A stretch of DNA of 37,318 bases, from assembly GCA_002067975.1 (NCBI GenBank), contig MVRS01000239.1:1-37318 (forward strand). The letters are read 5' to 3'. Shown here piece by piece: positions 18,502 through 37,205 of this stretch. The position numbers and the translations under genes were made by a program. The notes below the pieces were generated by a model, which was given only the letters and a program-made list of their open reading frames with translations, searched no databases and was not told where the DNA came from. This DNA is from Syntrophorhabdus sp. PtaU1.Bin058. Its GTDB lineage: Bacteria > Desulfobacterota > Syntrophorhabdia > Syntrophorhabdales > Syntrophorhabdaceae. Numbering within the stretch: the first letter of the stretch is position 1; each line of letters opens with the position of its first letter.

Positions 18502-18513
18502 TAGGAGAGTGCT

Positions 18514-19956: not shown

Positions 19957-19978
19957 CGGAGGGTAAGGCGATTCCCAA

Positions 19979-20025: not shown

Positions 20026-20028
20026 GGA

Positions 20029-20646: not shown

Positions 20647-20711
20647 TGGAAATCTCTATGGTGGGACGGGTATTGAACCCCTCAAGGAAGGGAAGACAGA
20701 ATTATGCGGCA

Positions 20712-22073
20712 ATGAAGGCGGCGAGGAAGTTTGCAGGACATAATAACCGGTTCCCTTCACCGGTGCGGACAATTGTGTGTAAGTGTCTCTTCATCGTGGC
20801 GGCCATAATCTCTTGTCTGGCGCCTGTAGCCGCCTGGGCGGAACCCCTTACCCTTGCTGATGGATTAAAGATAGTGACAGAGGAAAACCGTCTGGTCAGG
20901 ATCAGACAGCAGGAAGAGAAGATGTCCCATGCCGATACCCTCGTTGCCCGGTCGAGACTCCTTCCCAGGGTCAGTGCCTCCTACGGACAGACCTTCCTTG
21001 AACACCAGCCCGGGGTAATATTCGATTCTGCGGCTGCGCCGACTGCCGAAAAGAGCTACTACACCTATCAGCTTATGATCCAGCAGATCCTCTACGATTT
21101 CGGTGCTGCCGGCTCCCTTTACCAGGCAGCTAAATTGACGGAGGATACAAAACGGCTCGAAGCAAAGCGAACGAGGAATGCCGTTGCCCTGGATTTTTCC
21201 GTTCTCTATTTCGATGCTCTCGAGTCGGAGAAGCTGATAATCGTCGCTGAAACAGAGGTAGGAAGCCTTGAATCGCACGTCCAGGTTGCAACAAACCTCT
21301 ACCATAACGGGTTAATAACCAAGAACGACCTCCTCCAGGCCACGGTAAGACTTGCCGATGCGCGGCAGAAGCTCCTCACCGCGCAAAACATAAGAAAGAT
21401 AAACGGAGCGAGGCTGAACAACATGCTCACCCGGCCGCTTTCCATCCCCATCGAGGTGGTTGAAGTGACGAGGCCGTATCCGGACATGCTGCCCTACGAA
21501 GAAGCTGCCGATATCGCGGAAAAAGAACGGCCCGAACTGCAGATAGCCGATGCCACGCTGCAAGCACTTAAGTATGAGGAAACGGCCAAGAAGTCAGAGT
21601 ATCTGCCGAAGTTCCTCATACAGGGTCAGTACGACTATACGAAAAACAAATACCTGACCTACGAGGACAATACAGGGCTCAGCGTTTTGATGAATCTCAA
21701 TCTCTTTAACGGTGGGAGCACAAAGGCCGAGGTACAAAAAGTGCAGACTGCCCAGTCGAGGCTCCGCATTGAGCGGAAGAAGCTGTCGGACGAAATAGGA
21801 CTTGAGCTGGAAAAGTATTACCTTGATACGGTGAATGCGCGCGAAAGGATCCGCGTGGCGAAGGGAGCGATTTCCCAGGCAGAAGAGAATCTGAAGATTA
21901 CGAGGCTTAAATATGCGGAAGGGGTCGGCATCGCGACGGATGTCACCGATGCGATTGCCCTTCGCACGCTTTCTGAGACGAACTATTACCGCGCCCTTTA
22001 CGACTACTATCGTTCCGAGGCAGGCTACCTCTATGCTATGGGCAAAAACCTGAAGGAAAAATATGGGAGATGA
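20712..22073 (+). CDS. TolC-family outer membrane efflux protein
   Basis: Start at ATG 20712 gives signal peptide MKAARKF...CLAPVAAWA|EP. Two OEP repeats. The ORF track N-terminal extension to 20562 overlaps the TetR gene. Confidence 0.8.
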   Translation: MKAARKFAGHNNRFPSPVRTIVCKCLFIVAAIISCLAPVAAWAEPLTLADGLKIVTEENRLVRIRQQEEKMSHADTLVARSRLLPRVSASYGQTFLEHQPGVIFDSAAAPTAEKSYYTYQLMIQQILYDFGAAGSLYQAAKLTEDTKRLEAKRTRNAVALDFSVLYFDALESEKLIIVAETEVGSLESHVQVATNLYHNGLITKNDLLQATVRLADARQKLLTAQNIRKINGARLNNMLTRPLSIPIEVVEVTRPYPDMLPYEEAADIAEKERPELQIADATLQALKYEETAKKSEYLPKFLIQGQYDYTKNKYLTYEDNTGLSVLMNLNLFNGGSTKAEVQKVQTAQSRLRIERKKLSDEIGLELEKYYLDTVNARERIRVAKGAISQAEENLKITRLKYAEGVGIATDVTDAIALRTLSETNYYRALYDYYRSEAGYLYAMGKNLKEKYGR

Positions 22074-22110
22074 AGACGGGGAAGGCAATGTACATATCGA
22101 GGAGAAGTAC

Positions 22111-23169
22111 ATGAAGAGGCAGATGAATAAATGGGCCCTCAGAGGAGTGGTGTCGCTGATGATCGTGGGAGGGCTTATCTACGGGGCTTTTTACCTCGCT
22201 TACTCCCTTTCCCACGAAAGTACGGACGATGCGTACATCACCGGCGTGATCGTGCCGGTGGCGGCCGAGATCAAAGGGAGGGTGGTCAACGTCTACGTCA
22301 GAGATAACCAGTACGTTTCAGCCGGCAACCCTCTGCTCGATATCTTCCCCCAGGACTACTCGGACGCGCTCAAAGAGCGAAGCCAGACAGTTGCCACATT
22401 GACCGCGGAAAGACTTGAATTGGAGGCATCCCTTATGCAAAAGCAAAAGGCCCTCGCCCGGGCGCGGGCAAACCTTGCGGCAGCCACGGCGGAGGAGGCC
22501 CTCGCGGAAAAGGAACTGAAGCGATACAATCGACTCGTTCGGGAGGAAGCAGCCTCACAAAGCCAGTATGATCACGTAGAATCCCGCTCGAAGGTAGCCG
22601 GCGCCCGGACAAAGGCTGCCGAGGCAGCCCTGGCCGAAGCCGAGGGGGCCATCGAGGTCGCCAGGGCCAAGCTGAACACCCAGCATTTCAAGATCAAGGA
22701 AGCGGAAGCGGCCCATAGCCTCGCCGAACTGAACCTCAAGAGGACGACCCTCGTTGCCCCTGTCTCCGGAAGAATCGCCAAGAAGAATGTTGATCCGGGG
22801 AAGTATATACAGCCCGGGCAGGCCCTCCTCTCCATCGTGAAGGAGAGTACATGGGTGATCGCCAATTTCAAGGAGACACAGGTGGGGAAAATGGCCGTGG
22901 GACAGCCGGTGGACGTAAAAATCGACGCCTATCCCGGCATCATCTTTAAGGGCCACGTAGACAGTCTCCAGGCCGGAACCGGGGCGGTTTTCAGCTTACT
23001 TCCCCCTGAGAATGCAACGGGCAATTTCGTCAAAGTCGTCCAGCGTCTTCCCGTGAAGATCGTCATAGACTCCACTTTTGATCCTGTACATCCCTTATGG
23101 CCCGGACTGTCCGTCATCCCCACCGTGGACGTAAGCCGGCAAACAGGTTCCAAGTTGTCCGGGCGGTAG
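22111..23169 (+). CDS. emrA: HlyD/EmrA-family membrane fusion protein
   Basis: Start at ATG 22111 (GAGGAG RBS): MKRQMNKWALRGVVSLMIVGG, single TM, then HESTDDAYITG...V motif and a long coiled-coil. Typical EmrA. Confidence 0.85.
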   Translation: MKRQMNKWALRGVVSLMIVGGLIYGAFYLAYSLSHESTDDAYITGVIVPVAAEIKGRVVNVYVRDNQYVSAGNPLLDIFPQDYSDALKERSQTVATLTAERLELEASLMQKQKALARARANLAAATAEEALAEKELKRYNRLVREEAASQSQYDHVESRSKVAGARTKAAEAALAEAEGAIEVARAKLNTQHFKIKEAEAAHSLAELNLKRTTLVAPVSGRIAKKNVDPGKYIQPGQALLSIVKESTWVIANFKETQVGKMAVGQPVDVKIDAYPGIIFKGHVDSLQAGTGAVFSLLPPENATGNFVKVVQRLPVKIVIDSTFDPVHPLWPGLSVIPTVDVSRQTGSKLSGR

Positions 23170-23173
23170 TCCC

Positions 23174-24733
23174 GTGGAGAGCTACAAACCTCACAAATGG
23201 CTCGTTGCGGTCACGGTAATGACCGGAACCCTGATGGCCGCTTTAGATACCAGCATAGTAAACGTCGCACTGCCCCACATGAGCGGGACGTTCGGGGCAT
23301 CCATCGAGGAAATCACCTGGGTTTCGACAGGCTATATGCTCTCCCAGGTCATCATTATGCCTATTATCGCGCTCCTGAGTTCCCGGTTCGGACGCAAACG
23401 GTTTTATATCTTTTCAGTAGCCCTCTTTACGTGTTTTTCCATGCTTTGCGGGGTTGCCTGGGACCTGTCGTCAATGGTCATTTTCCGTATCGTTCAGGGT
23501 TTCGGAGGCGGTACACTCATACCCTTGTCGCAGGCGATCTTGCGGGAGACCTTCCCCAAGGAGGAACAGGCAACGGCAATGAGCCTCTATGGTCTCGGTG
23601 TTATCCTGGGGCCGGCTTTCGGACCAACCCTTGGCGGGTGGCTCACCGACAACTACTCCTGGCCATGGATCTTCTATATCAACGTTCCCGTGGGTATCAT
23701 CAATATCCTCCTGATCATGCGTTTTATCGATGATCCGCCATACCTCGTCAGGGAAAAAGGAAAGCTCGATTTCACCGGGCTATTCCTCATGTCGGTCGGG
23801 ATCGGGGCCCTGCAGATCATGCTGGAGAAGGGCGAACAGAAGGATTGGTTCGCATCGAATATGATAAAGTACCTTGCCGTTGCTGCATTCATAGGCATTG
23901 TATTGTTTACGATACGCGAACTTACCACCGACAGGCCCGCGGTCAATCTGCGGATCCTGAAGGATATCAATTTCAGCCTGGGAAGTTGCCTCGGCGGTGT
24001 TCTGGGAATGGGTCTTTTTTCCAGCATCTTTATCCTGCCCCTCTTCCTGCAGCAGCTTCTCGGCTACCCTGCTTACGATTCGGGGCTGGCGCTTATACCA
24101 AGGAGTATCGCAATGGCAATAGCGATGCCTATCGGGGGAAAGACATACAACAAGGCAGGGCCGCAGGCATTGATAGCGCTCGGGCTTTTCGTGAATGCCG
24201 TTTCGTTTTACCTGCTTTCGCGTCTCTCTCTTACTGTGGGGTACTGGGACATATTCTTTCCCCAGTTTTTGCAGGGTCTGGGTTTTGGCTTCATTTTCGT
24301 TTCCCTGAGCACTGCCGTGTTGTCGACGATAGAAAAATCCCTCTTGACTGCCGCCTCCGGGCTATATAATGTAATCAGGCAGATATTCGGGAGTGTCGGC
24401 ATTGCCTTAGCCGCCACGTTTCTGACACGCGGAGAAAACCTGTACCGGGCGCTGCTTGTAGAACATGTAACCATCTTCAGGGATGTCGTGCCCGAATCGT
24501 TGCATCGGCTTTTGTCGTTGTTGTCGTCTCAAGGGGCAAACGTGAGCGGCACCGACCTTGAGGCCCTGAAGTTTCTGGAAAGGATGGTCATGAAGCAGGC
24601 AAGTATGCTTGCCTATAATCATGTCTTCTTTCTCATCGCCGCCCTTTTCCTTCTCTCGGTGCCCCTTGCCTTCTTAGTCAGGGACCCGCAACGAGGCAAA
24701 GGCGCGGAGGTCATGAGAGAGGAATACGATTGA
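23174..24733 (+). CDS. emrB: MFS drug:H+ antiporter, DHA2 (14-TMS) EmrB/QacA family
   Basis: 519 aa. GTG start. LMAALDTSIVNVALPHM and multiple MFS motifs. Follows emrA-like and tolC-like genes. Confidence 0.9.
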   Translation: MESYKPHKWLVAVTVMTGTLMAALDTSIVNVALPHMSGTFGASIEEITWVSTGYMLSQVIIMPIIALLSSRFGRKRFYIFSVALFTCFSMLCGVAWDLSSMVIFRIVQGFGGGTLIPLSQAILRETFPKEEQATAMSLYGLGVILGPAFGPTLGGWLTDNYSWPWIFYINVPVGIINILLIMRFIDDPPYLVREKGKLDFTGLFLMSVGIGALQIMLEKGEQKDWFASNMIKYLAVAAFIGIVLFTIRELTTDRPAVNLRILKDINFSLGSCLGGVLGMGLFSSIFILPLFLQQLLGYPAYDSGLALIPRSIAMAIAMPIGGKTYNKAGPQALIALGLFVNAVSFYLLSRLSLTVGYWDIFFPQFLQGLGFGFIFVSLSTAVLSTIEKSLLTAASGLYNVIRQIFGSVGIALAATFLTRGENLYRALLVEHVTIFRDVVPESLHRLLSLLSSQGANVSGTDLEALKFLERMVMKQASMLAYNHVFFLIAALFLLSVPLAFLVRDPQRGKGAEVMREEYD

Positions 24734-24746
24734 GGAGGAACCCCGC

Positions 24747-25376
24747 ATGAATAAGTATGCAGCCATAACCGTATCGAGACAGATGGGGAGCGGTGGCACA
24801 TATATCGGCTACCAGGTGGCGAAGGCGCTTGGCTTTTCATACGTAGACAGGCAAATCCTCCGCCGGGCGGCAAGTCTTCTCAACAGGGATGAGGTGTCCC
24901 TGGAAGAATACGAGGAAAAATCGTCCGGCCTTATCCAGAACCTCCTGAGGACATTTCTCCTGGGGACCCCGGAAACCGCCTATATACCAAAAGAGCGGCC
25001 GATCTACGACAAGGATCTGTTCCTTCTTGAAAGCAAGATCATAAACGAGATTGTGGATAAGCATAACGCCGTCATCATGGGTCGTTGTGGGTTCTGCCTG
25101 TTGAAAGACCGCCCGAAAACGGTACATCTGTTCATCTACGCCCCTCGCGATTATCGAACAGAGCGGATCATGAAGGCCGACAGTACCGCCGATCCGCGGG
25201 AGGCACAAGCCAGGATAGATGAGTCGGACCGGAGAAGGACCAAATTCATCAGGGATATGGTCGGAACAGAATGGACAGATGCACGGAATTATCATCTCTG
25301 TGTCGACTCGAGCACTGTCGGCCTTTCCGAAAGTGTACAGATGGTCATCGGCTTTGTAAAAAAGGCTCTGGGCTGA
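24747..25376 (+). CDS. Cytidylate-kinase-like family P-loop protein (Cytidylate_kin2-type), function unknown
   Basis: 209 aa. N-terminal AITVSRQMGSGGTYIG P-loop-like motif characteristic of the family. 13 bp after the emrB stop. Confidence 0.6.
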   Translation: MNKYAAITVSRQMGSGGTYIGYQVAKALGFSYVDRQILRRAASLLNRDEVSLEEYEEKSSGLIQNLLRTFLLGTPETAYIPKERPIYDKDLFLLESKIINEIVDKHNAVIMGRCGFCLLKDRPKTVHLFIYAPRDYRTERIMKADSTADPREAQARIDESDRRRTKFIRDMVGTEWTDARNYHLCVDSSTVGLSESVQMVIGFVKKALG

Positions 25377-25410
25377 AATTCAGTTGATGATATTCCTTCT
25401 CCCTGCGCCA

Positions 25411-25460
25411 GGCTCCTTCATTCCAGTCGAATGTAGGTTGCCCTGAATCTGCGCAAATGA
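25411..25460 (-). pseudogene. Remnant of the 3' end of a paralog of the methyltransferase gene at 30951..31616
   Basis: About 80% nt identity over 49 bp to 30942-30990. In the same frame it encodes ...LRRFRATYIRLE* versus the intact gene tail ...VRRFRAAYIRPK*. Similarity continues past the stop (tgaAGGAGCCtgg versus taaAGGAGCCgga). There is an in-frame stop a few codons upstream, so no intact ORF. Confidence 0.5.
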
Positions 25461-25505
25461 TACCTCTTGCCGACCGTTCAAAGGATAGAACTCCACCGGA
25501 AAGCA

Positions 25506-26309
25506 TTATCTCGATAGCCGGAGGATCCTGAAGGCGCCCCTGCCCACAAGTATGAACACGATCGTCCCTACGATCAGGTCAGGCATCTTCGATCCTGTGA
25601 GGTACACGCATATGCCTGCAACAATAACGCCGAAGTTCACGATGACGTCCATGGACGTAAAGATCATGCTCGCCTGCATATGCACCTCCCGGCTTTTCGA
25701 CCTCTGAAGCAGATAGAGGCACGTTGCATTCCCTGCAAGGGCGAGGGTAGATATAACGATCATCGTGTAAAAATCCGGGGTCTCTCCATATCCCAGAAAG
25801 CGGCGGATAACCTCCGCGAAACCCAGTACTGCCAGGGCCAGTTGGAAATAACCTGCGGCCCCGGCGATCTTCTTCTTCCGGACGGCAGTCCCGCCCACCG
25901 CGAACAACGAAAGCCCATAGACGATGCTGTCCGCCAGCATATCCAGACTGTCCGCCACAAGCCCCATTGAGCCGGCGATGAATCCCGCCAGCATTTCAAG
26001 GACAAAAAAGAAGAGATTGATTGCGAGGACCTGCCACAGGATACGCCTCTGTTGGCGGCTGTCCTCCTCTGTACCCACCGGCTCTATCTCTTCGGTAAAG
26101 ATGAGTTCCGTATCGAGCCGAAGGTCCTCAAGGGCCGTCAATATCCTCTCGTAACCGCCTGCGTGATACACCTCCAGCCTGCGTCCCGGTATGTCGAATT
26201 TCAGGTTCCGGATATCATCCACACCCTCCAATCTCACCCGTACCATCTGTTCTTCCGAAGGACAATCCATCTTCGATATTCTGAATGTCGTTTTGAACAT
26301 ACTCTTCAC
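25506..26309 (-). CDS. CDF-type cation efflux transporter (TM domain only) fused to an N-terminal HMA-like domain with a degenerate metal-binding motif
   Basis: 267 aa. N-terminal ferredoxin-like HMA fold with MDCPSEE (one Cys where MxCxxC is usual), then about 6 TM helices with CDF signature LVADSLDMLADS in TM2. No C-terminal cytoplasmic CDF domain. Confidence 0.55.
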   Translation of the reverse strand: MKSMFKTTFRISKMDCPSEEQMVRVRLEGVDDIRNLKFDIPGRRLEVYHAGGYERILTALEDLRLDTELIFTEEIEPVGTEEDSRQQRRILWQVLAINLFFFVLEMLAGFIAGSMGLVADSLDMLADSIVYGLSLFAVGGTAVRKKKIAGAAGYFQLALAVLGFAEVIRRFLGYGETPDFYTMIVISTLALAGNATCLYLLQRSKSREVHMQASMIFTSMDVIVNFGVIVAGICVYLTGSKMPDLIVGTIVFILVGRGAFRILRLSR

Positions 26310-26343
26310 GGGGTCGTCCTTTCAGGCCGATGCCGATCCCTGA

Positions 26344-26802
26344 TTATACACCATGATCCGGTGAATAAGGGTTCTCCTCTTCAAATTCAAACAACTCGAA
26401 GCCGACTCCTCCCGGGCCCGTAAAGAAGGCCAGCCGGAGCAGGCCCAATTCGGTGTGCATAAAACCGGTCTCGGGAAATGGCTCGGAGACGGTGTATCCA
26501 CATGACTGAAGTTTCTGCCGCCAGGCAGGTATATCCGTCACCCTCAGACATATATGAGGGATCCCAACCACGTGGCCCGCGGGATGAACGGGGAAATCGG
26601 GGCGCGGCGTGACGTTCGGTTCCGTGAGCAGTTCCAGCATCTGTTGGTCGCCGATATGGATGATCGCCCGCTCCCCCGGCCCGATGCTGCCGCGCGGATT
26701 GCGTGTCAACAGACGAAATCCCATGACATCAATGTAAAAAGAGATCGCCTCGTCCATGTTATCGACCCATATGCCCACGTGATGGATATTGATACACTTC
26801 AT
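26344..26802 (-). CDS. VOC (glyoxalase/bleomycin-resistance/dioxygenase) family protein
   Basis: 152 aa with INIHHVGIWVDNMDEAISFYIDVMGFRL, a typical glyoxalase I-like N-terminal beta-alpha-beta-beta-beta module. Confidence 0.8.
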   Translation of the reverse strand: MKCINIHHVGIWVDNMDEAISFYIDVMGFRLLTRNPRGSIGPGERAIIHIGDQQMLELLTEPNVTPRPDFPVHPAGHVVGIPHICLRVTDIPAWRQKLQSCGYTVSEPFPETGFMHTELGLLRLAFFTGPGGVGFELFEFEEENPYSPDHGV

Positions 26803-26877
26803 TTCGACCCCCTTTTCTCAATCGTCCCCTGGAGGAGCTCTCCGGGGCATGCCCGAGCCGGGCCACCCCCTCCTTTT

Positions 26878-28581
26878 CTAAAGCCTGTGCATAATATTCA
26901 CGATCAAAGAGCCCCAAATGGTCAGCACCACGTTTGCTACCGCGTAAGGGGCTGCATATCCGAGAACAGGCGTAAAGCTGCCCGCCTGTTCCTGCAGCAC
27001 AAGGAGCGCAGCGGTAATATTTCGCGAGCCTGCCAGCGAGCCGAGTATAAGAACCGGATTCAATTTCAGCACCACCTTTGCAAAGATCAGGCCCACCAGC
27101 ACCGGAATTATCGTGAGCAGAACACCGGCAAAAAAGACCGAGACCCCCGTCGTCTTCAACGCCGCCAGTGCCTGGCTGCCGGCACCCAGTCCGACGCAGG
27201 CGATGAAGAGGTTTAATCCCAGGTTCTGGAGGATCCACCGGCTTGCCGATGGGATCTGCCCGTAGGTGGGATGCAGGGTACGTACCCATCCGAATATAAG
27301 TCCGGAAACCAGGACCCCTCCGCCGACCCCGAGCGTAATAGAGATGCCGCCGACATTGACCACCAGCAGACCGATCAGTGTGCCGATCACGCACCCTCCG
27401 CCGACTACGATCATATCGGTTACATCCGTAGGGCGTTCGGGATATCCGAGCCTTTTAACGGCACGTTCCACATCCGTTTTTGCACCTGCCAACTGGATAA
27501 TATCGCAGTGCTCGATTATTGTTCCGGGAAGAATCGGCACCGCATTGCCCTGTCTCGTAATCCTGCGGAGAAACAGACCGTGAGATTCCTCCCGTTTCGC
27601 CAGCTCGGCTATGGTTTTCCCGACAGCCTCCCTGTTGAGCACGCAGACATCCATTACCTCGCCGACAATATCCACCATACCCTTGATGTCCTGTTCCGGG
27701 CCGATCAGGTCGGACGCCGCTATCATATTCGTCCGGAACGAGCTTCCTATAACGAGGATGTCGCCCGGCCTGACAAGGAGATCGGGCTGGGGCGCCAGGG
27801 GTTGCCCGTCTCTTCGAACGGCTTCGACATATGCCAGATGCTCGAACATGCCTTCGACATCCTTGAGCGTTTTTCCGACAACCTTTTCATTTTTCACGAG
27901 GTATGCGCGCAGGGACAACTGTCTGGTCCACAAAAACAGTTCCGGGCTTTTGTCGAGGTCGTCTTCTCCCCCTGAATAACTTTCTTCGAGCTTCTTCGCT
28001 TCCGCCTTCAGATCAATGCCGATTATCCGGGGCAGCAAAGAGAACATGAGAATGCCGCCTACTGTCCCGAAGACATACGTGATGCCGTACGCGACGGCAA
28101 CATTCGTTTCCATGGCAACCTTGGCTGCATCGGACAATGCCGGCAGATGGGCAATAGCACCTTCGGCCGTCCCTATCGCAGACGATGTAGTCAGGGCGCC
28201 GGCCAGCAGCCCTGCCGTGGTGCCGGGGTCGAAAGAGAAGAGTTTGCCGAGCCCGAGGACGGTGACCAGCGCCGCCACTGCTACAACCAGGGCAACCCAG
28301 ATGTAGCTTAAGCCCTGTTTCTTCAATGCCCCGAAAAACTGGGGTCCCACACTATAGCCGATACAGAATACAAACAAGGCAAAACTGACGGTTTTCAACA
28401 GGGCCGGGACCTTAACACCGGGGATCTGTCCGAGGGCGAGGGCAACAAGCAGGACCGACGCGGTGGACCCCAGACTAAATCCTTTAAACCTGAGCTTGCC
28501 GATGTAATAGCCGGCAGCGAGCGACAGAAACAGCAGCATCTCAGGTTGTTTACGGCAAATCTCCAAAATATCATTCATCAT
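26878..28581 (-). CDS. AAE-family exchanger (YidE/YbjL/AspT-like putative aspartate:alanine antiporter) with central tandem TrkA-C (RCK_C) domains
   Basis: 567 aa. Two homologous 5-6 TM halves (GQIPGVKVPA..., GLNLFIACVGLGAGS) separated by two RCK_C-like cytoplasmic domains. Immediately downstream of asdA. Confidence 0.85.
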   Translation of the reverse strand: MMNDILEICRKQPEMLLFLSLAAGYYIGKLRFKGFSLGSTASVLLVALALGQIPGVKVPALLKTVSFALFVFCIGYSVGPQFFGALKKQGLSYIWVALVVAVAALVTVLGLGKLFSFDPGTTAGLLAGALTTSSAIGTAEGAIAHLPALSDAAKVAMETNVAVAYGITYVFGTVGGILMFSLLPRIIGIDLKAEAKKLEESYSGGEDDLDKSPELFLWTRQLSLRAYLVKNEKVVGKTLKDVEGMFEHLAYVEAVRRDGQPLAPQPDLLVRPGDILVIGSSFRTNMIAASDLIGPEQDIKGMVDIVGEVMDVCVLNREAVGKTIAELAKREESHGLFLRRITRQGNAVPILPGTIIEHCDIIQLAGAKTDVERAVKRLGYPERPTDVTDMIVVGGGCVIGTLIGLLVVNVGGISITLGVGGGVLVSGLIFGWVRTLHPTYGQIPSASRWILQNLGLNLFIACVGLGAGSQALAALKTTGVSVFFAGVLLTIIPVLVGLIFAKVVLKLNPVLILGSLAGSRNITAALLVLQEQAGSFTPVLGYAAPYAVANVVLTIWGSLIVNIMHRL

Positions 28582-28592
28582 AAATCCCCCGG

Positions 28593-30188
28593 TTATTTAC
28601 CGGATCTCTTCCAGGTGTCATAATATTCGGCGAGCAGTTCGCTGATCGCCTTACCTATTTTCGTATAATCATTCTTGAAGAGGTTCGCGAGAGAAACACG
28701 GACAGACATCTCCGGTGCCGCAAAACCGCCGCCGTCCATCAGGACAACGCCCTTTTTATCGGCAAGGTTCCAAACGAAATCAATCGGTTCGTACGCTGAT
28801 TCGAGCCACAGCACAAAGTCTTTTCCGAACCGCCTTTCGGCAAGTCGCGGGATGTCGATCGTCGTATAATACATGGCGTAGCAGGGCAATTCCGGCGCCT
28901 CGATGTTGATCGATTTATAGAGCGCCTCATAGCGTTCTCTCACGATGTCCTGCACCTCTTTCCTGTAAAGGTGGCTGTCGGAGTCGAGGAGTTCCTGAAA
29001 CGCAAACAGAACCATCATCACCTGCTGCGGCGTCGAGAGACCGGCGGTATGGTTCAGTGCGACCGCACGGCTGTCTGCTACCAAGCGGTCAATGAGCTTG
29101 ATGTTGTCCGGATCGGGTGAGATGGATTCATAGCGCCTATGCATGCTCCTGCGTTTGTCGCGGGGAAGACCCGCAATCATCCTGTCCATTACGTTGTCCC
29201 GGTATATCCCTATGACTCCCAGCCTCCAGCCGGTAGCTCCGAAATACTTGGAGAACGAGTAGACCAGGATGGTGTTTTCAGGGGCGATGGTCGCCAGAGA
29301 TTTAAAGCCGTTCACGAACGTCCCGTAAACATCGTCCGTAAGTATTATAAGGTCCTTTCTGCGGGTTTGAACCAGGTCCGCGATCTTTTCGAGAGATTCC
29401 CTTGCGACACTGGTAGAGGGCGGATTTGACGGATTGACGACAAAGAAGGCCTTCACGGACGGATCGCTCAGCTTATCGAGTTCCGAATCGGGATACTGCC
29501 AGTTGTTGTTCTCATCCATCCTGATATCCAGGACTACCAGCTCATAATCGTTAAGGGTGGGGATTTCCAGATAGGGCGTAAAGATCGGTGTGCCGAGGGC
29601 GATCTTATCCCCGGGATTAATGAGGAAATTTTCCTTCAGCGTATTAAAAATGTATGTCATCGCCGCAGTCCCTCCCTCTACCGCGAAGATGTCCATAGTC
29701 CCTTCCGGCGGTTCGCCGTTGCACATTGTGTTATCAAGATAGGCGCGGAGGATCTCCTCGGTGTTCTTTAGCACGCGGTCCGGAGTGGGATAGTAATCGC
29801 CGAGTATACCGTCAACCATCTCTACTACGAAGGAGTCACCCTGGAGCCCGAGTGTTTCTGTAGCATATTTGTATGAATCTGCAAGAAATTGCGAACCGAT
29901 TAATTCGGAGTGGTTGCGGCAGAAGTCGAGCAGGCGTCCCCCGATGCCCTTTGATTCGGGAGTGCCGGCTATCCCGGGGCGGCTCAGGACCAGATGCGCC
30001 TCTTCAAGGGCGAAGGTGCCCAGCAGAAAAAAGGCATATCTCGGAATTGTCGCGACCCAGTTCGGATTTCCCCTCCCCGCATTCAACATCATCCGCTCCG
30101 GATCTGAGCCTGCCATTTCGATCAGCTTGTTCTTCAGTTCAAAAGGGCTTAATCCTTCATAACGTTTCTCTTCCGTCGTTTTTGCCAT
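28593..30188 (-). CDS. asdA: Aspartate 4-decarboxylase (L-aspartate beta-decarboxylase), PLP-dependent
   Basis: 531 aa. Near-colinear with known AsdA motifs: LSPFELKNKLIEMAGSD...MLNAGRGNPNW, VEGGTAAMTYIFNTLKEN, NWQYPDSELDKL, VVNPSNPPS, TDDVYGTF, YSFSKYFGATGWRLGV, DRLVADSRAVALNHTAGLSTPQQV. Confidence 0.9.
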   Translation of the reverse strand: MAKTTEEKRYEGLSPFELKNKLIEMAGSDPERMMLNAGRGNPNWVATIPRYAFFLLGTFALEEAHLVLSRPGIAGTPESKGIGGRLLDFCRNHSELIGSQFLADSYKYATETLGLQGDSFVVEMVDGILGDYYPTPDRVLKNTEEILRAYLDNTMCNGEPPEGTMDIFAVEGGTAAMTYIFNTLKENFLINPGDKIALGTPIFTPYLEIPTLNDYELVVLDIRMDENNNWQYPDSELDKLSDPSVKAFFVVNPSNPPSTSVARESLEKIADLVQTRRKDLIILTDDVYGTFVNGFKSLATIAPENTILVYSFSKYFGATGWRLGVIGIYRDNVMDRMIAGLPRDKRRSMHRRYESISPDPDNIKLIDRLVADSRAVALNHTAGLSTPQQVMMVLFAFQELLDSDSHLYRKEVQDIVRERYEALYKSINIEAPELPCYAMYYTTIDIPRLAERRFGKDFVLWLESAYEPIDFVWNLADKKGVVLMDGGGFAAPEMSVRVSLANLFKNDYTKIGKAISELLAEYYDTWKRSGK

Positions 30189-30459
30189 TTTACTGACCTC
30201 CGTTTTATTCTCTACTAAGCCTTTTGATCTTTCAAGGCTTCCAGGAGATAGAGATATTGCTTCATCGCTTCCTGTTTCCTCCGCATGAAATATTAATCAG
30301 TATTGCTGCAGAACCAGCCTCGTTCGCAGGCCCGCTCTTTCATGTCCTGATGCGTTCCTGATCGTCTGTTGAACTCACCAACGAGCTGTTGTAAATGTTG
30401 TTATAAGATCATTGTTATCCAATTCCGATCTAATTTCAAGGATAAAATCTCTGACGGGA

Positions 30460-30615
30460 ACAAAGATCGCCTCCGGCAACACGGCGCAGGCAAAGGCGCT
30501 GAGCAGCGAAAGGACGGCGGTGAACATCCTCGCCCGCCGGATGAACACCGGTGTTCTCCTCATCAAAGCGCTTGGCGGAGGCCGGGAAAGAAAGGGTGAA
30601 AAAGAAAAACGTTAG
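30460..30615 (+). pseudogene. Diverged remnant of the 3' end of an efflux outer-membrane-factor gene (paralogous to the OMF gene ending at 19956)
   Basis: About 85% nt identity to 19820-19956. Encodes ...SERTAVNILARRMNTGVLLIKALGGGRERKGEKEKR* versus intact ...SERTALNILARRMTASVLLIKALGGGWEKNSEKEKQ*. No upstream OMF body. Confidence 0.65.
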
Positions 30616-30647
30616 CAGGTCAGGCATTACACGCCGGCGAACTATGT

Positions 30648-30869
30648 TCACCACCAATACCAATACCTTATCGCTTTTCGCCAGAAATTGTCTCCGTATC
30701 TCATGGCGAGAAAACCGCATACCACGGCGCCCACAAGACAGGGTATGATCCAGGACAGGTGGCCTAAGAAAAACCTGAAGAAAACAATAATACCGAGACC
30801 GATCCCCAGGAGGCTACCGCAACCGAACCGGATCCCTTTCTCTAATCTGTCAGGCCGCATCTCGTCCAA
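30648..30869 (-). CDS. Hypothetical small membrane protein (73 aa, 2 predicted TM helices)
   Basis: Hydrophobic segments LLGIGLGIIVFF and IIPCLVGAVVCGFLA. Downstream of the methyltransferase on the same strand. No homology recognised. Confidence 0.3.
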   Translation of the reverse strand: MDEMRPDRLEKGIRFGCGSLLGIGLGIIVFFRFFLGHLSWIIPCLVGAVVCGFLAMRYGDNFWRKAIRYWYWW

Positions 30870-30950
30870 GCGGGAACTCCTTTATGATTGATAACGGTAT
30901 AGATTGCGGGCGGCTGCAAATTATCCTCTGCATCCTTTTATCCGGCTCCT

Positions 30951-31616
30951 TTATTTTGGTCGGATGTAGGCTGCCCTGAACCTGCGCACCGGCGGCTCTT
31001 CTTTGTCGATGTAATCTTCAAACGATATCTCGTTTAGCCCGCGGGTCAGGAAGAGCGACAGTTCTTGCTTTGTAACCGGCCACGGCATCTCCCCTTCGGG
31101 CTCATCCGGTTCCCTCCCCCGGGCAATGACGAGCAGCGTACCGCCGGGGGCCACGAATGATGCTATGCGTCGCACCGTCTCGGCCCGGAGATATTGCGGG
31201 AGCACCTGAAGGGTGTACGATTCAAGCACAAAAGAGAACCTGCCCTGCCAGTCATTCGGCGCAGAGAACAGATCCGCAACGACATAGGACACGGAGGACT
31301 TTGGGAAACGCGCCTTGGCCCGTGCAATGGCCGATTCCGAGATATCGAATGCCGTTGTTTGAAGTCCCGTTCGCGCCATCTCCTCCGCATCATCACCCAG
31401 ACCGCTTCCGACCTTGAGCGCAGGCCCCGATACAACGGATCCGTTTTGTCTCAGCCATTCGACAAGGCTGGGATTCGGCTTCAGGTCGGCCCAGGGAATG
31501 ATCGAGCTGTCTTCGCCTGCCAGCAAGTAAAGGTCTTCAAACCAGCCAAGGGGGTCGCCTGCTTCAAGGTGCCTGTGTGCGAGTTCCCTGGCCGTTGTCC
31601 TGTCTCTTCCGTTCAA
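30951..31616 (-). CDS. Class I SAM-dependent methyltransferase (small-molecule MTase-like)
   Basis: 221 aa. Rossmann motif I-like VVSGPALKVGSGLGDDAEEMA and post-I acidic residue FDISE. 25 bp downstream of the flotillin-like gene. Confidence 0.6.
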   Translation of the reverse strand: MNGRDRTTARELAHRHLEAGDPLGWFEDLYLLAGEDSSIIPWADLKPNPSLVEWLRQNGSVVSGPALKVGSGLGDDAEEMARTGLQTTAFDISESAIARAKARFPKSSVSYVVADLFSAPNDWQGRFSFVLESYTLQVLPQYLRAETVRRIASFVAPGGTLLVIARGREPDEPEGEMPWPVTKQELSLFLTRGLNEISFEDYIDKEEPPVRRFRAAYIRPK

Positions 31617-31641
31617 TGATACCTCCTGACCCCTTCACCTC

Positions 31642-33735
31642 TCACGTCTGCGCGTCTTTCGGCGCGTCCGATCCCTGCCCGGAAGATTCCGGGGTCCTGG
31701 GCGGCACTGTAATGATGCTGGTCAAAAAGGCGGACAGGAGCCCCCCTATGTTATCACCGCCCTGAACAAGAAAATCGGGTGTCACCTTCACGTTCCCCGA
31801 CGCGATCTGTTTGGCAATCTCGATTGCCGTGACCCCTTGCTGTCCGACGGCCTTGTTCTGAAGTTCATAGGCCTTTGCCGTCGATTCGCCGATGGCGAGG
31901 ATCCGCGACCCTTCCGCCTCGCCTTTTGCCTTAATACCCCTTGCCTCGCCCTCTGCCCTCAAACGAATGCTCTCGGCCTCCCCTTCGGCAAACCTGATCG
32001 CCTTCTGCTTGTTCTGCTCGGCTATCTTTACGCCGATCTCTGCCTCTACGAGGTTCTTCTGCTGGTCGGCCTCCGAGCGGGTCTTCTCGGTGGCTATCCT
32101 CGTCTGCTCGGCCCGCTGCTGTTCCTCGTACATGGCTTGCTGCTGCTGGGCGATAATCTTCTTGGTCTGGGTGTCCATGAGGTCCTGAGGCAGGTTGATC
32201 TGGCATATGAGCACCGACACGCATTCGACGTGGTATTTCTCCAGTTCCGCCTTCGCCCTCTCCTCCGCCTTCCGCTGCTCTTCCTGGCGGTCCTGCATGA
32301 AGTTCATGGCAGACGTGGAAGACGCCTGATTGCGGAAGCTGGAGTCGATCATGGGGTGGATCACATGAAGGATAAGGTTTTCGATGGAGCCTATCTTGGC
32401 TACCATATAAGGCGCCTGGTCCGGCCTCACCCGGATGACCACCTTCACGGAGACGCTGATGGCGAAACCGTCTCTCGATATGACCTTGAGCGGATCGAAA
32501 CGCGTCTCCTTCGAATCATCCCAGTCTATGGTAATGTTCGTGGTGTCTACGATATAGACAAGATAGGCGAGGCGGTTCAGGTAGTAAACCCCCGGGCCGG
32601 CCACCTCCTGTTGAATCCCCCGGAAACCCTTGGGGACCACGTAGCGCTCGATGCCGGCGTCATATCGTTTTTCTATTGCACTGTATGCGTCGCTGCCGGG
32701 CATTGCGCCTTCCTGTTTTGCTATCTCCTCGATGACCCTCCGTATCTGTATCGGTTCCTCTCCCACGTTCGAAACAACGACGGCCACCTGGCCGCGCTCG
32801 ACCACTGCCACATCATCGAGTTCGATCTTGAAGATCATCGGGTTGATATAGTAGGTGCCCGGCCTCAGCACATCGAATTGGGGACCGCGCTGGCCCCCGG
32901 CAAATAGGAATTTGGACGCGTCCTGGAAGTCGTTATGGCCGGACACGGGCTTGGCCACGTATTCACCTTCGGGCAGGGGTTCACCGTCCAAAGCGGTTAT
33001 GAGGCCGACCTTGCCCGCGGGCACGACTGTGGCATCTTTGATCTCTATGTGGAACAGGTCGGTATTGATACGATAGGTGCCGGGAAGGAGTATCTCTATC
33101 TGGGGCCCCTTCTGACCGCCATTGGCCAGAAAGATCTCGCCATTTTCGAAATTCGAATGACCCTCCACCTTTTTCCCCAACAAACGGCCGGGAGGGATCG
33201 GACTGCCGTCCATAGAGGTGATAATCCCTATCCTGCCTTTCTCAATGATCAGGGCAGACTCCTTTCTCGTGTGGAAAAGGATAGGATTGATGCGGTACGT
33301 GCCTGGAGGGAGTATCTCTATCTGGGGCCCCTTCTGGCCGTTGTTTTTCAGAAAAGTGCCGCCGTCCTGGAATGAATTATGTCCTTCCACGACCCTTGCG
33401 AATATCTTTCCCGGCGGAACCGGGTCGCCGTCGATCGATTCTATTACCCCCACTTCGTTCTCCGCGATGGAGGTGAACGGGTATTTCCTGGGTAGATACA
33501 GAAAGGGGATGAGAAGGTGCAGGCCCGGCCCAAGGGTACGCGCCTGGATGCCTACTTCATTGGGCTGCGCGATAACACGCCCCTGGGGCATTGCCCTGCC
33601 GAGATACTTCCGTTCTATGACAGCAAGCTCGGTCCCACGGACCAATACGATGGATTTCCGCACAAAAAACAGCAGCACTACCACCCCCAGGACATAAAGC
33701 CAGTGCGAGAAAACAAAGGAAAACAATCCATCCAT
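31642..33735 (-). CDS. Flotillin-like SPFH/band-7 protein (YqiK-like) with N-terminal TM anchor, 3-4 internal tandem repeats and C-terminal EA-rich coiled coil
   Basis: 697 aa. TM helix, then SPFH N-segment (LGPGLHLLIPF), then three about 75-aa repeats each ending ...GGQKGPQIEILPPGTYRINP..., then the SPFH remainder and a flotillin-type coiled coil (AEGEARGIKAKGEAEGSRILAIGES). Strong RBS AAGGAGGT. Confidence 0.8.
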   Translation of the reverse strand: MDGLFSFVFSHWLYVLGVVVLLFFVRKSIVLVRGTELAVIERKYLGRAMPQGRVIAQPNEVGIQARTLGPGLHLLIPFLYLPRKYPFTSIAENEVGVIESIDGDPVPPGKIFARVVEGHNSFQDGGTFLKNNGQKGPQIEILPPGTYRINPILFHTRKESALIIEKGRIGIITSMDGSPIPPGRLLGKKVEGHSNFENGEIFLANGGQKGPQIEILLPGTYRINTDLFHIEIKDATVVPAGKVGLITALDGEPLPEGEYVAKPVSGHNDFQDASKFLFAGGQRGPQFDVLRPGTYYINPMIFKIELDDVAVVERGQVAVVVSNVGEEPIQIRRVIEEIAKQEGAMPGSDAYSAIEKRYDAGIERYVVPKGFRGIQQEVAGPGVYYLNRLAYLVYIVDTTNITIDWDDSKETRFDPLKVISRDGFAISVSVKVVIRVRPDQAPYMVAKIGSIENLILHVIHPMIDSSFRNQASSTSAMNFMQDRQEEQRKAEERAKAELEKYHVECVSVLICQINLPQDLMDTQTKKIIAQQQQAMYEEQQRAEQTRIATEKTRSEADQQKNLVEAEIGVKIAEQNKQKAIRFAEGEAESIRLRAEGEARGIKAKGEAEGSRILAIGESTAKAYELQNKAVGQQGVTAIEIAKQIASGNVKVTPDFLVQGGDNIGGLLSAFLTSIITVPPRTPESSGQGSDAPKDAQT

Positions 33736-34087
33736 GTCTTAACCTCCTTTTTTAGGTCTTGCGAACTTTTTTTATTATTATTTAACGGCCCATCATATCC
33801 TTCTTTGCTTGATACACGACTACCGGGGGTTGTATTTACCGGCAGAGACGCGCGATACGGCCGCACTACCTCGTTGGGTGTCTTTCCGTCACCTCTCTGA
33901 CCGGACAAAGTTTTCACTGAGTCGGATGGAATGCGCTGTTGATTGATCCCCCACGTATCCGCCCCGCCTTAATCTTCCTCCAAAAGCCATAAAAATGCAA
34001 TGAAATTTTATCGAGGTGTCGACAGGTTAATTCATCCCCCTGTTTTGCCGATTGGCAGGGGTGATCGGTTGGTCCCTTTGACCGGTT

Positions 34088-37197: not shown

Positions 37198-37205
37198 TCC
37201 GAATA

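What the first reader, a model, noticed from the sequence alone, without database searches (positions are those of the whole stretch)
25411..30990. A 5.5-kb block (CDF-VOC-AAE-asdA) bracketed by diverged direct copies of a methyltransferase gene 3' end
A 49-bp segment at 25411-25460 is about 80% identical to the last codons plus 3' flank of the intact methyltransferase gene at 30942-30990, in the same orientation. It still translates in frame to ...RRFRATYIRLE* versus ...RRFRAAYIRPK*. Similarity continuing past the stop codon shows this is DNA homology and not convergent peptide similarity. The 5.5 kb in between carries the metal transporter, VOC protein, AAE exchanger and asdA. This pattern is expected if that block was inserted into, or recombined next to, a second copy of the methyltransferase locus that has since decayed.
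Basis: seen in the sequence. Interest (0 to 1): 0.55.

Follow-up and report, generated by a model that had tools for sequence, protein, structure and literature searches.

The report
Leftover gene ends mark locus reshuffling
The 45-base repeat is the real leftover tail of a second methyltransferase gene whose body was deleted; with a second, overlooked leftover gene end it shows that two versions of one gene junction were joined in series, which is an ordinary scar of recombination between strains and not a mobile element.

Summary
In detail: 25411-25455 matches 30944-30988 (38/45, E 1e-6), there are only two copies in the window, and in 1.8 Mb of related loci it matches only methyltransferase (MT) gene ends. 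Close relatives (L054/L148, about 91% DNA identity) have VOC-CDF-MT contiguous. In the window the CDF-MT spacer, ribosome-binding site and start are still present behind CDF and are fused to the last 12 MT codons, so this is an in-place MT gene that lost about 626 nt. A second interleaved repeat was missed: the last 139 nt of OMF1 (19819-19957) recur at 30478-30616 (84%), 327 nt from the intact MT. The window therefore holds two versions of a convergent OMF1>/<MT junction in series. The "5.5-kb block" is not an inserted unit. AsdA-AAE and VOC-CDF are separate modules, and a 94%-identical strain (L147+L150) has LCM-AsdA-AAE-VOC-CDF|OMF1 while lacking 30494-34082 (OMF relic, spacer, intact MT, SPFH) and 19928-25502. 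There is no integrase, transposase, tRNA, terminal repeat or compositional deviation. The most likely cause is a recombination scar with one illegitimate join. Which copy is older, and whether the second copy came from a diverged relative or from an old duplication, remains unresolved. Interest is low.

The parts
25409..25455 (-). M1 relic: the last 38 nt of a methyltransferase ORF (11 sense codons plus TGA at 25420-25418) and 10 nt of its 3' flank
   Evidence: 38/45 to the intact MT tail. 41/47 to the L054 MT tail and 39/47 to M2. Translation is given. It hits only MT tails in other loci.
25456..25505 (-). Conserved CDF-to-MT intergenic spacer with RBS (AGAGG) and the first bases of the MT start codon. 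The deletion junction lies between 25456 and 25455. A TTG (25456-25454) is in frame with the tail.
   Evidence: Alignment to L054 5380-5520 and to the upstream region of the intact MT.
30951..31616 (-). Intact class I SAM-dependent methyltransferase (M2, TTG start). Its tail at 30944-30988 is the other member of the 45-nt repeat.
   Evidence: Pfam Methyltransf_25/11/23. 94% aa to P0001/L054. Homology to L054 runs 31628-30864.
30617..30950 (.). Spacer 's' (327-334 nt) between the OMF1-tail relic and the intact MT. The 87 nt next to MT (30864-30950) are conserved in L054/L148.
30478..30616 (+). O2 relic: the last 44 codons plus stop of an OMF1-type gene. The frame and stop are kept, there is no indel, and homology ends abruptly on the 5' side.
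   Evidence: 85% over 134 nt. 139 nt at 84%. Codon table. 113/133 to O1 against about 69% to the orthologues L061-63.
18514..19956 (+). Intact OMF1 (NodT-family outer-membrane efflux subunit), the last gene of the TetR1-MFP-RNDa-RNDb-OMF1 operon. Its tail 19819-19957 is the other member of the 139-nt repeat.
   Evidence: Pfam OEP. TIGR01845 at 457 bits. Repeat.
19958..25410 (+). X segment: TetR2, OMF2, HlyD-type MFP, MFS (EmrB-like) and a cytidylate-kinase-like gene. It fills the gap between OMF1's stop and the M1 relic and is absent from the T1 and T2 strains.
   Evidence: Pfam. Absent in L147 (join 19927|25503) and in L054/L148.
25506..26802 (-). VOC-CDF two-gene module (VOC 26344-26802, CDF 25506-26309).
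   Evidence: Pfam. 91.5-92.4% DNA identity to L054/L148, where MT follows directly. The pair is also found in L141/L142.
26878..30188 (-). AsdA-AspT module (aspartate 4-decarboxylase 28593-30188, aspartate:alanine antiporter 26878-28581).
   Evidence: NF006755 at 761 bits and TIGR03802 at 582 bits, both above cutoff. The same pair sits in unrelated contexts in L053 and L144-146.
30494..34082 (.). 3.59-kb segment present in the window but replaced by 64 unrelated nt in the 94%-identical strain L150. It contains the O2 relic, spacer, intact MT, SPFH gene (31642-33735) and promoter-like segment B (33968-34009).
   Evidence: L150 1-210 matches 34292-34083 and L150 275-4515 matches 30493-26259. Junction alignments. 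The private 64 nt have no similarity to the segment.
30472..30497 (.). Left junction of the 3.59-kb segment: a short GC-rich patch shared imperfectly by the window (GCGCCGTGTT), L150 (GCACCGCGTT) and OMF1 (GCGCCACGTT).
   Evidence: It is either a microhomology join or a remnant; this is not resolved.

Best explanation
The 45-nt repeat is a footprint of locus rearrangement and has no function of its own.

Shown:
- The copy at 25409-25455 is the tail of a methyltransferase gene that once sat directly downstream of CDF, as it still does in relatives L054/L148.
- That gene lost about 626 nt of its body in one clean deletion. Its upstream spacer, RBS, start remnant, last 12 codons and 10 nt of 3' flank remain.
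- The intact methyltransferase lies 5.5 kb away, inside a 3.6-kb segment (30494-34082: OMF1-tail relic, spacer, MT, SPFH).
- A 94%-identical strain lacks that segment, and the segment carries its own truncated copy of the OMF1 3' end.
- The window therefore contains two versions of one convergent junction 'OMF1> <MT' in series. Version 1 is intact OMF1 - X operon - dead MT - CDF - VOC - AspT - AsdA. Version 2 is dead OMF1 tail - 327-nt spacer - intact MT - SPFH. Each version has lost the gene that the other keeps.

Inferred:
- A second copy of the junction, from a diverged relative or from a paralogous locus, was joined in by recombination. One end was an illegitimate join, or a join at very short homology, at about 30472-30497 inside the OMF1 tail. 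The other end lay on the LCM/SPFH side. This resembles homology-facilitated illegitimate recombination.
- The now-redundant methyltransferase behind CDF was deleted either before or after that event.

No site-specific mobile-element machinery is involved.

The stated confidence applies to the structural reading (relics of two stacked versions of one junction). The specific source of the second version, a diverged relative rather than an old duplicate, I put at only about 0.5.
For: 1. Relic in place. L054 and L148 (98.5% identical to each other, about 91.5% to the window) have VOC-CDF-56 nt-MT. The window keeps that spacer, the RBS and 'TATCATT' and then runs straight into the MT tail.
2. Second interleaved repeat. 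The OMF1 tail 19819-19957 matches 30478-30616 (84-85%, no indel, frame and stop kept), giving the order O1 (intact) - M1 (relic) - O2 (relic) - M2 (intact).
3. The OMF1>/<MT neighbourhood is also seen in L001. In L054/L148 the MT 3' spacer (87 nt) is joined to the region that lies upstream of the RND operon in the window (10236 downwards). This fits an ancestral MT-spacer-OMF1...TetR1 arrangement from which those strains lost the operon.
4. Strain L147+L150 (100% overlap, about 94% to the window) lacks 30494-34082 and 19928-25502 but keeps LCM-AsdA-AAE-VOC-CDF|OMF1-RNDb.
5. O1 and the O2 relic are each other's closest relatives (113/133, against about 69% to L061-63), so the relic arose within this lineage. 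O1 and L147 differ at 2/104 sites, while the relic differs from both at 14/104. With L061-63 as outgroups the changes split 7 on the O1 stem, 8 on the relic and 5 ambiguous. So the relic was probably part of a constrained gene for much of that time. This favours a diverged allele or paralogue over a copy that was dead from birth.
6. Nothing points to a mobile element. The Pfam-scanned ORFs include no integrase or transposase. There are no tRNA genes, no Rfam hits, no terminal inverted repeats at the segment boundaries and no GC or codon-usage deviation.
7. The mechanism class is documented: a homologous anchor plus an illegitimate end, leaving orphaned 3' gene regions (PMC5361080; PMC3240628, which also reports 109-950-bp duplications of the homologous segment after single-crossover integration).
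Against: - No contig showing the proposed source arrangement (full OMF1 - spacer - MT - SPFH) was found.
- The direction of the 3.6-kb difference from L150 is not settled. L150 retains an OMF1-tail-like patch of about 20 nt at the junction, which could equally be the remnant of a deletion from a window-like ancestor.
- The branch test rests on 15 polarised sites and on outgroups only 69% identical.
- Relic-branch changes fall mostly at codon positions 1-2 and at conserved residues (GGGW to GGGR). That indicates real decay and therefore some age.
- A hoped-for drop in identity across the junction disappeared at protein level: LCM is 92.3% identical, against 91-97% for the other shared genes.
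- OMF1-MT adjacency is rare. It occurs in 1 of 82 OMF1-orthologue loci, so the L001 case could be coincidence.
- The window is a metagenome-assembled contig, and the junctions were not checked against reads.
Confidence: 0.72

Rival explanations
1. An old duplication within the genome, followed by reciprocal loss. A segment spanning the OMF1 tail, the spacer and MT (with or without neighbours) was duplicated inside the same chromosome. One copy then lost MT and its spacer, which were replaced by the X operon. The other copy had been truncated in OMF1 from the start. Strain L147+L150 later deleted both variable segments.
For: - The two repeat pairs have the same identity (84% and 84-85%), as expected from a single event.
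- Both relics are closest to their partners in the window.
- L150 retains about 20 nt resembling the OMF1 tail at its junction.
- L147's OMF1 has clearly lost its native last 29 nt, so that strain does carry deletions.
- No donor lineage needs to be postulated.
Against: - A copy truncated at birth should evolve neutrally and accumulate several times more changes than the intact gene. The observed split is 8 against 7.
- The duplicated unit would have to contain OMF1 tail-spacer-MT-SPFH-B, an arrangement the resident locus does not have, because MT follows CDF there.
- L150's 64 private nucleotides are not derived from the 3.6-kb segment, so a simple deletion does not explain L150.
Confidence: 0.22
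2. The 5.5-kb CDF-VOC-AAE-asdA block is a unit that was inserted into, or next to, a methyltransferase locus, and the two MT 3' ends are the duplicated or split target that brackets it, in the manner of an island.
For: Direct repeats in the same orientation flank the four genes. All four genes are on one strand.
Against: - The block is two independent modules.
- VOC-CDF-MT is the contiguous arrangement in L054/L148, so the relic belongs with CDF and is not an insertion boundary.
- The block is present and linked to OMF1 and LCM in a strain that lacks both repeats.
- There is no compositional deviation.
- There is no integrase or tRNA gene.
- The repeats are only 84% identical.
Confidence: 0.04
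3. Assembly artefact. The MAG contig is a chimera of two co-occurring strains, joined at or near the OMF1-tail relic.
For: The window is a metagenome-assembled contig of Syntrophorhabdus sp. PtaU1.Bin058. Related strains with different arrangements exist. No second contig with the window's exact arrangement was retrieved.
Against: - The sequence shared at the junction is only about 10-20 nt and is imperfect, far below assembler k-mer sizes.
- The two repeat copies are only 84% identical, with short exact runs, so they would not collapse or bridge in an assembly graph.
- The M1 relic is a deletion allele, not a join between strains.
- A 99.7%-identical SPFH protein exists in an independent assembly.
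Confidence: 0.05
4. The 45-mer is conserved because it is functional, for example as a terminator, a regulatory RNA or a recombination site that overlaps the gene end. On this view it is not a relic.
For: A short motif after the stop codon (AAGGAGCC / AAGAAGCC) recurs in several MT orthologues. MT homology boundaries recur at about -12 and +7..10.
Against: - There is no Rfam family.
- There is no terminator-like site at either copy, and the terminator count in the region is at background.
- Substitutions are spread evenly over codon positions, [3,3,4].
- The flanking spacer, RBS and start remnant show that this is a deleted gene.
- No attC-like repeats were found in the L055 array.
Confidence: 0.03

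Closest known systems
Homology-facilitated illegitimate recombination (HFIR) and related one-sided homologous integration (de Vries & Wackernagel 2002; Prudhomme et al. 2002; Meier & Wackernagel 2003, as cited in PMC5361080; E. coli conjugation study PMC3240628)
   Same: One end of the extra segment lies in sequence shared with relatives (the LCM side). The other end is an abrupt join inside a gene (OMF1, 134-139 nt from its stop) at a short imperfect GC-rich patch. The result is a net insertion that leaves a truncated duplicate of a resident gene. PMC3240628 reports duplications of 109-950 bp of the homologous segment in such integrations.
   Different: Nothing here was observed experimentally. 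The donor arrangement has not been found and the direction of the event (insertion or deletion) is unresolved. The organism is an uncultured syntroph with unknown competence or conjugation capacity.
Orphan 3' fragments left by module displacement in Rhs, CDI and T6SS effector-immunity loci (PMC5361080 and the references in it)
   Same: Successive versions of a locus are stacked in series. The displaced gene survives only as a 3' fragment next to the newly arrived, intact version. The copies are diverged alleles from relatives and not young duplicates.
   Different: Those arrays are polymorphic toxin systems under diversifying selection, with a constant 5' region that acts as the anchor. Here the genes are an efflux outer-membrane subunit and a generic methyltransferase. 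There are only two versions, and there is no sign that keeping the fragments is selected.
Genomic islands or integrative elements flanked by att direct repeats
   Same: Direct repeats of a gene's 3' end lie in the same orientation on either side of several accessory genes.
   Different: There is no integrase and no tRNA or tmRNA target. The repeats are 84% identical rather than near-identical. There is no compositional deviation. The bracketed genes are resident in a sister strain that lacks the repeats. The repeats interleave with a second pair, which att duplication does not produce.
Segmental duplication followed by reciprocal gene loss
   Same: There are two copies of a junction, and each retains a different member intact. 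The identity of the two repeat pairs is equal.
   Different: The relic branch is not accelerated relative to the intact gene, and the second copy is embedded in genes (SPFH, B) that the first copy does not have.

Membership tests
Gene remnant (pseudogene fragment) of the class I SAM methyltransferase at its orthologous position | Sequence homology to the parent gene that exceeds chance and is specific to that gene. | tested here: met
   38/45 with E 1.3e-6. 41/47 to the L054 MT tail. Hits only MT tails in 1.79 Mb of loci.
Gene remnant (pseudogene fragment) of the class I SAM methyltransferase at its orthologous position | Conserved flanks: the same upstream neighbour and spacer as the intact gene in a close relative. 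| tested here: met
   The CDF stop, 43-nt spacer, RBS and start remnant align to L054/L148 CDF-MT.
Genomic island / integrative element with att direct repeats | An integrase or recombinase gene within or next to the element. | tested here: not met
   Pfam scans of 24 of the 26 large ORFs listed for the window found no integrase, recombinase or transposase. The two RND pump genes were identified by homology to efflux-operon loci, not by a Pfam scan.
Genomic island / integrative element with att direct repeats | Integration at a tRNA/tmRNA gene or another recognised att site, with near-identical direct repeats. | tested here: not met
   No tRNA or tmRNA gene in the window. The repeats are only 84% identical.
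Genomic island / integrative element with att direct repeats | The bracketed DNA is absent as a unit from related genomes (empty site), often with deviant composition. | tested here: not met
   AsdA-AAE-VOC-CDF is present in strain L147+L150, which lacks both repeats. The modules occur separately elsewhere. GC content and codon usage are unremarkable.
IS element or composite transposon | Transposase, terminal inverted repeats and a short target-site duplication. | tested here: not met
   No transposase. No inverted repeats at 19958/25410 or 30494/34082.
Integron gene cassette (for the methyltransferase) | An attC site downstream of the ORF and an IntI/attI platform. | tested here: inconclusive
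   No IntI in the window. No attC-like imperfect inverted repeats in the cassette-like array of L055. No dedicated attC model was run.
HFIR-type insertion | One junction inside extended homology and the other at non-homologous sequence or microhomology. | tested here: inconclusive
   The left junction at 30472-30497 has only a short imperfect patch. On the right side, homology to L150 resumes at 34083. The crossover point within the homologous side could not be located, because LCM shows no identity step.
HFIR-type insertion | An identifiable donor arrangement, here full OMF1-spacer-MT-SPFH. | not tested
Candidates that could show it are the contigs carrying P0380 (SPFH, 99.7%), P0365 and P0362 (MT).
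Dispersed intergenic repeat (REP/MITE-like) | Many copies at unrelated intergenic sites. | tested here: not met
   Two copies in the window, and only MT tails in 146 loci. The rest of the source genome was not available.

The most novel reading that the evidence does not exclude
The methyltransferase could be a discrete, self-contained mobile gene unit. Its homology boundaries recur at about 12 nt upstream of the start and 7-10 nt downstream of the stop, in the window's two copies, in L054/L148 and in the unrelated array of L055. It is about 70% identical across many phyla. It sits in cassette-like co-directional arrays with toxin-antitoxin genes. It is repeatedly found intact, frameshifted or deleted at operon ends. 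It might move by an undescribed mechanism that recognises a short motif after the stop codon (AAGRAGCC), without an integron integrase nearby.
Probability: 0.05. Interest if true: 0.55.

Novelty: new member of a known kind. Interest (0 to 1): 0.17.

Why it matters
The finding matters mainly as a worked example. Two short leftover gene ends, read together with three related strains, reconstruct how an efflux/aspartate-decarboxylation region of an uncultured syntroph (Syntrophorhabdus) was reshuffled at the scale of single genes. It shows that 'repeat-block-repeat' patterns in raw sequence need not mean that the block is the insert. It flags this OMF1/MT junction as a strain-level hotspot of gene-content change. 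It also cautions annotators that 25409-25505 and 30478-30616 are pseudogene fragments. It does not reveal a new kind of element or mechanism.

Tried and rejected
1. Exact-product look-ups of the window's MT and AsdA failed. For MT this is because the TTG start is translated as L; the NCBI protein differs only at residue 1.
2. Tandem duplication of one large unit. The two copies differ in almost all of their content, so the duplication junction and the flanks do not fit. Rejected on the geometry.
3. Campbell-type integration into a genome of the O2 relic's lineage. RNDb-OMF1 is 94.4% identical to strain L147, like the AsdA...CDF block, so OMF1 and the block belong to the same background.
4. An identity step at LCM as evidence of a mosaic. 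The DNA piece looked low (86.7%, 28/210), but one of 135 sliding windows also reaches 28 mismatches, and full-length LCM is 92.3% aa, within the range of the other genes. Dropped.
5. Segment B as a sigma-54 promoter. The TGGCA motif is not conserved in the window and its spacing is wrong.
6. The 47-aa 'OMF1 cluster' member P0383 on L149, tested as a possible dispersed OMF-tail element. It has no DNA similarity to the window and is a spurious cluster member.
7. Integron cassette idea for MT. No attC-like repeats in L055 and no integrase.
8. Functional RNA or terminator at the relics. No Rfam hit, and terminator-like sites are at background.
9. Remnants of the spacer 's' beside O1 or M1, or of OMF1's 5' part upstream of the O2 relic. 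None was found at word size 7.
10. A DNA-folding call on the 3' flanks failed on a length limit and was not repeated.

Full report
**1. Observation**

The claimed repeat exists.
- A self-comparison of the window at word size 7 recovers 25411-25455 against 30944-30988 as a direct, ungapped 45-nt match. It has 38 identities (84.4%) and E = 1.3e-6. The repeat finder reports the same pair (D6).
- On the minus strand the downstream copy is the end of an intact 221-aa class I SAM methyltransferase (30951-31616; Pfam Methyltransf_25/11/23).
- The two copies translate as ...PVRRFRAAYIRPK* and ...HLRRFRATYIRLE*, and similarity continues 7-10 nt beyond the stop.
- The window has only these two copies. 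In 146 related loci (1.79 Mb) the relic matches nothing but methyltransferase 3' ends.

**2. Setting**

The window is a complete 37,318-bp contig of the MAG Syntrophorhabdus sp. PtaU1.Bin058. The gene order follows from Pfam and NCBIfam.
- Plus strand: TetR1-MFP-RNDa-RNDb-OMF1 (10360-19956).
- Plus strand: TetR2-OMF2-HlyD-MFS-cytidylate-kinase-like ('X', 20008-25376).
- Minus strand: CDF (25506-26309), VOC (26344-26802), aspartate:alanine antiporter (26878-28581), aspartate 4-decarboxylase (28593-30188), a 762-nt gap, MT (30951-31616), an SPFH protein (31642-33735) and an LCM-type methyltransferase (34116-34970).
- The Pfam-scanned ORFs include no integrase or transposase. There are no tRNA genes and no Rfam family.

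**3.

The same self-comparison shows a second, longer direct repeat. The last 134-139 nt of OMF1 (19819-19957) recur at 30478-30616, inside the gap between asdA and MT, at 84-85% identity.
- This copy keeps the reading frame and the stop codon over 44 codons and has no indel. Its homology ends abruptly on the 5' side.
- The order along the plus strand is therefore O1 (intact OMF1 end), M1 (MT relic), O2 (OMF1 relic), M2 (intact MT end). This is an interleaved pattern.
- In both places an OMF1 end and an MT end face each other. In the first they are separated by the 5.45-kb X operon, and in the second by a 327-nt spacer.

**4. The MT relic is an in-place deleted gene**

Contig L054 (MT 94% aa, DNA about 91.5%) and contig L148 (98.5% identical to L054) carry VOC-CDF-56 nt-MT on one strand.
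- Aligned to the window's minus strand, the CDF-MT spacer of L054 is conserved downstream of the window's CDF. The conservation runs through the RBS and 'TATCATT'. The sequence then continues directly into TGCGCAGATTC..., the last 38 nt of the ORF.
- The junction lies between 25456 and 25455. Compared with the intact copy, about 626 nt are missing. A TTG at 25456-25454 happens to be in frame with the 11 remaining sense codons.

**5. The 5.5-kb block is not an insertion unit**
- AsdA-AspT occurs as a pair in unrelated contexts: L053 (86% DNA over 30234-26875 only) and L144-146.
- VOC-CDF occurs as its own pair, followed by MT in L054/L148 and by a VapB gene in L141/L142.
- GC (0.54) and GC3 (0.65) of the block lie within the range of the neighbouring genes, and the codon-usage distances simply track module length.

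**6. Three strain-level arrangements**

Cluster members at 90% identity or more led to further contigs.
- **T1 (L054/L148):** B-VOC-CDF-MT-87 nt of spacer, then directly the window's 10236 to 5792 region (TetR0, molybdopterin oxidoreductase, thioesterase, C92 peptidase). T1 has no RND operon, X, AsdA-AspT or SPFH.
- **T2 (L147 plus L150):** the two contigs overlap by 2,495 bp at 100% identity, so they are one strain, about 94% identical to the window.
  - The LCM end (window 34292-34083) is followed by 64 private nt and then by window 30493 downwards through the AsdA upstream region, AsdA, AspT, VOC and CDF.
  - The CDF stop (25503) is joined through 8 nt to OMF1 at 19927, followed by RNDb.
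  - T2 thus lacks 30494-34082 (O2 relic, spacer, intact MT, SPFH, B) and 19928-25502 (the last 29 nt of OMF1, X and the M1 relic).
- **T3:** the window itself.

The block itself is the resident part.

**7. Reconstruction**

Three observations fit an ancestral junction ...RND-OMF1> spacer <MT <CDF <VOC.
- CDF-MT-spacer adjacency in T1.
- MT-spacer-OMF1-tail adjacency in the window's second copy.
- In T1 the proximal spacer abuts the sequence that lies just upstream of the RND operon in the window.

A distant relative, L001, also has OMF1 convergent with this MT. However, it is the only one among 82 OMF1-orthologue loci. The window then holds two versions of the junction in series, and each has lost the gene that the other retains.

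**8. Where did the second version come from?**
- O1 and the O2 relic are each other's closest relatives: 113/133, against about 69% for either one to the 80%-aa orthologues L061-63. They also share a lineage-specific C-terminus.
- O1 and T2's OMF1 differ at 2 of 104 sites, while the relic differs from both at 14. Polarised with L061-63, the changes split 7 on the stem leading to O1, 8 on the relic and 5 ambiguous.
- A fragment that was non-functional from birth should have accumulated several times more changes than its constrained partner. The near-equal split suggests that the relic spent much of that time inside a working gene, either in a diverged relative or as a working paralogue. The truncation would then be comparatively recent.
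- The relic-branch changes do hit conserved residues (GGGW to GGGR), so some decay has occurred.
- For MT, the 47-nt comparison is star-like: L054-M2 41/47, L054-M1 41/47 and M1-M2 39/47. Two of the 'M1-specific' states match the family consensus. That is uninformative but does not suggest a young duplicate.
- I therefore favour integration of a second version of the junction with one illegitimate join, over an old in-genome duplication. The join lies at 30472-30497, where the window, L150 and OMF1 share only a short imperfect GC-rich patch. I hold this preference with moderate confidence only.
- L150's 64 private nucleotides show no similarity to the 3.6-kb segment. The T2/T3 difference is thus a replacement and not a simple deletion. 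However, L150's OMF1-like patch of about 20 nt leaves the direction open.
- The mechanism class is documented. It involves a homologous anchor plus an illegitimate end and leaves orphaned 3' gene regions (PMC5361080 and the primary papers it cites). PMC3240628 additionally reports 109-950-bp duplications of the homologous segment after single-crossover integration.

**9. Checks that weakened my own argument**
- The LCM DNA piece shared with L150 is only 86.7% identical, against 93.7% for the rest. That looked like a mosaic boundary. However, one of 135 sliding windows in the AsdA-VOC part is equally divergent. Full-length LCM is 92.3% identical at protein level, inside the 91-97% range of the other shared genes. 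I do not use it.
- The source arrangement (full OMF1-spacer-MT-SPFH) was not found, and the contig look-ups were exhausted before the SPFH- and MT-bearing contigs could be fetched.
- The window is an assembled metagenome contig. A chimera is unlikely, because the shared sequence at the junction is far shorter than an assembler k-mer and the repeats are only 84% identical. Even so, the junctions have not been verified against reads.

**10. Comparison with known systems and verdict**
- The locus fails the tests for an att-flanked island, a transposon and a dispersed repeat. An integron-cassette origin for MT is unsupported (see the membership table).
- It resembles, in outcome, homology-facilitated illegitimate recombination. 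It also resembles the 'orphan 3' fragment' arrays of Rhs and T6SS loci, but without their toxin biology and with only two layers.
- It is a new instance of a known kind of recombination scar, and it has no function of its own.
Interest is low, with a small residual chance that the methyltransferase is a discrete mobile gene unit with recurrent boundaries.

Noticed in passing
window 12290-15406 and 15355-18501: Two tandem paralogous RND pump genes (74% DNA identity over 17491-18435 against 14378-15322), in the MdtB/MdtC style. They are conserved as a pair in about 30 related loci.
   Followed up: partly
window 33048-33168 and 33270-33390: Internal 121-nt direct repeat (73-84%) inside the 697-aa SPFH/Band-7 gene. 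NCBIfam has no family for this protein.
   Followed up: no
window 6580-6603 and 6671-6694: Perfect 24-bp direct repeat in the intergenic region upstream of the 4HBT thioesterase gene. L148 aligns to only one copy.
   Followed up: no
window 9980-10359: AT-rich (about 39% GC) divergent TetR0/TetR1 intergenic region with palindromes at 10084-10130 and 10127-10220. It is conserved at 79-88% in the T1 strains even though they lack the RND operon it precedes here.
   Followed up: partly
window 30951-31616: The deposited name 'Mg-protoporphyrin IX methyl transferase' is not supported: the BchM/ChlM model scores 22 bits against a cutoff of 158.9. It is a generic class I SAM methyltransferase of unknown substrate. 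Its TTG start made the exact-sequence look-up fail.
   Followed up: yes
P0364, P0366 (cluster of the window's MT); L055-L058: Frameshifted 187-aa variants of the same methyltransferase exist in other strains. Orthologues about 70% identical occur in many phyla. In L055-L058 the gene sits in co-directional arrays with toxin-antitoxin pairs, a GNAT acetyltransferase and barnase/barstar. An 18-nt similar motif follows the stop codons of MT and of the preceding gene in L055 (4849-4866 and 5603-5620). No attC-like repeats were found.
   Followed up: partly
L147 1531-1660: In the T2 strain the last 10 codons of OMF1 are replaced (...GGGWGGTALSR*), and the gene overlaps the convergent CDF gene's end by 12 nt. 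The conserved GGGW motif is retained, so the truncated-tail protein may still work.
   Followed up: partly
L053 11607-13311: In the 420-kb relative, the aspartate:alanine antiporter gene is called as two ORFs (266 and 305 aa), suggesting a frameshift or a split gene.
   Followed up: no
window 37205-37253; L054 3863-3911: A short run of GTATCSAG-like units downstream of the sigma-54 activator gene. It is 92% conserved in L054, where it lies only 72 nt from segment B. The sigma-54 activator and LCM genes are absent between these two segments in L054.
   Followed up: partly
L001 11004-11705: The 233-aa ORF between MT and OMF1 in the Syntrophobacteraceae MAG matches only the middle domain of acyl-CoA dehydrogenases. 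It is probably another gene fragment at the same kind of junction.
   Followed up: no
L149 2333-2476: A 47-aa ORF between ribosomal protein L15 and SecY genes is clustered with OMF1 in the protein collection but has no DNA similarity to the window. It is a spurious cluster member.
   Followed up: yes
L143 4709-7247 and L053 18699-21472: Two Syntrophorhabdus-type contigs share a Lactamase_B - patatin - class II tRNA-synthetase-like neighbourhood, next to CDF in one and a few kb from AsdA-AspT in the other. This hints that these modules lie in one larger variable region in other species.
   Followed up: no
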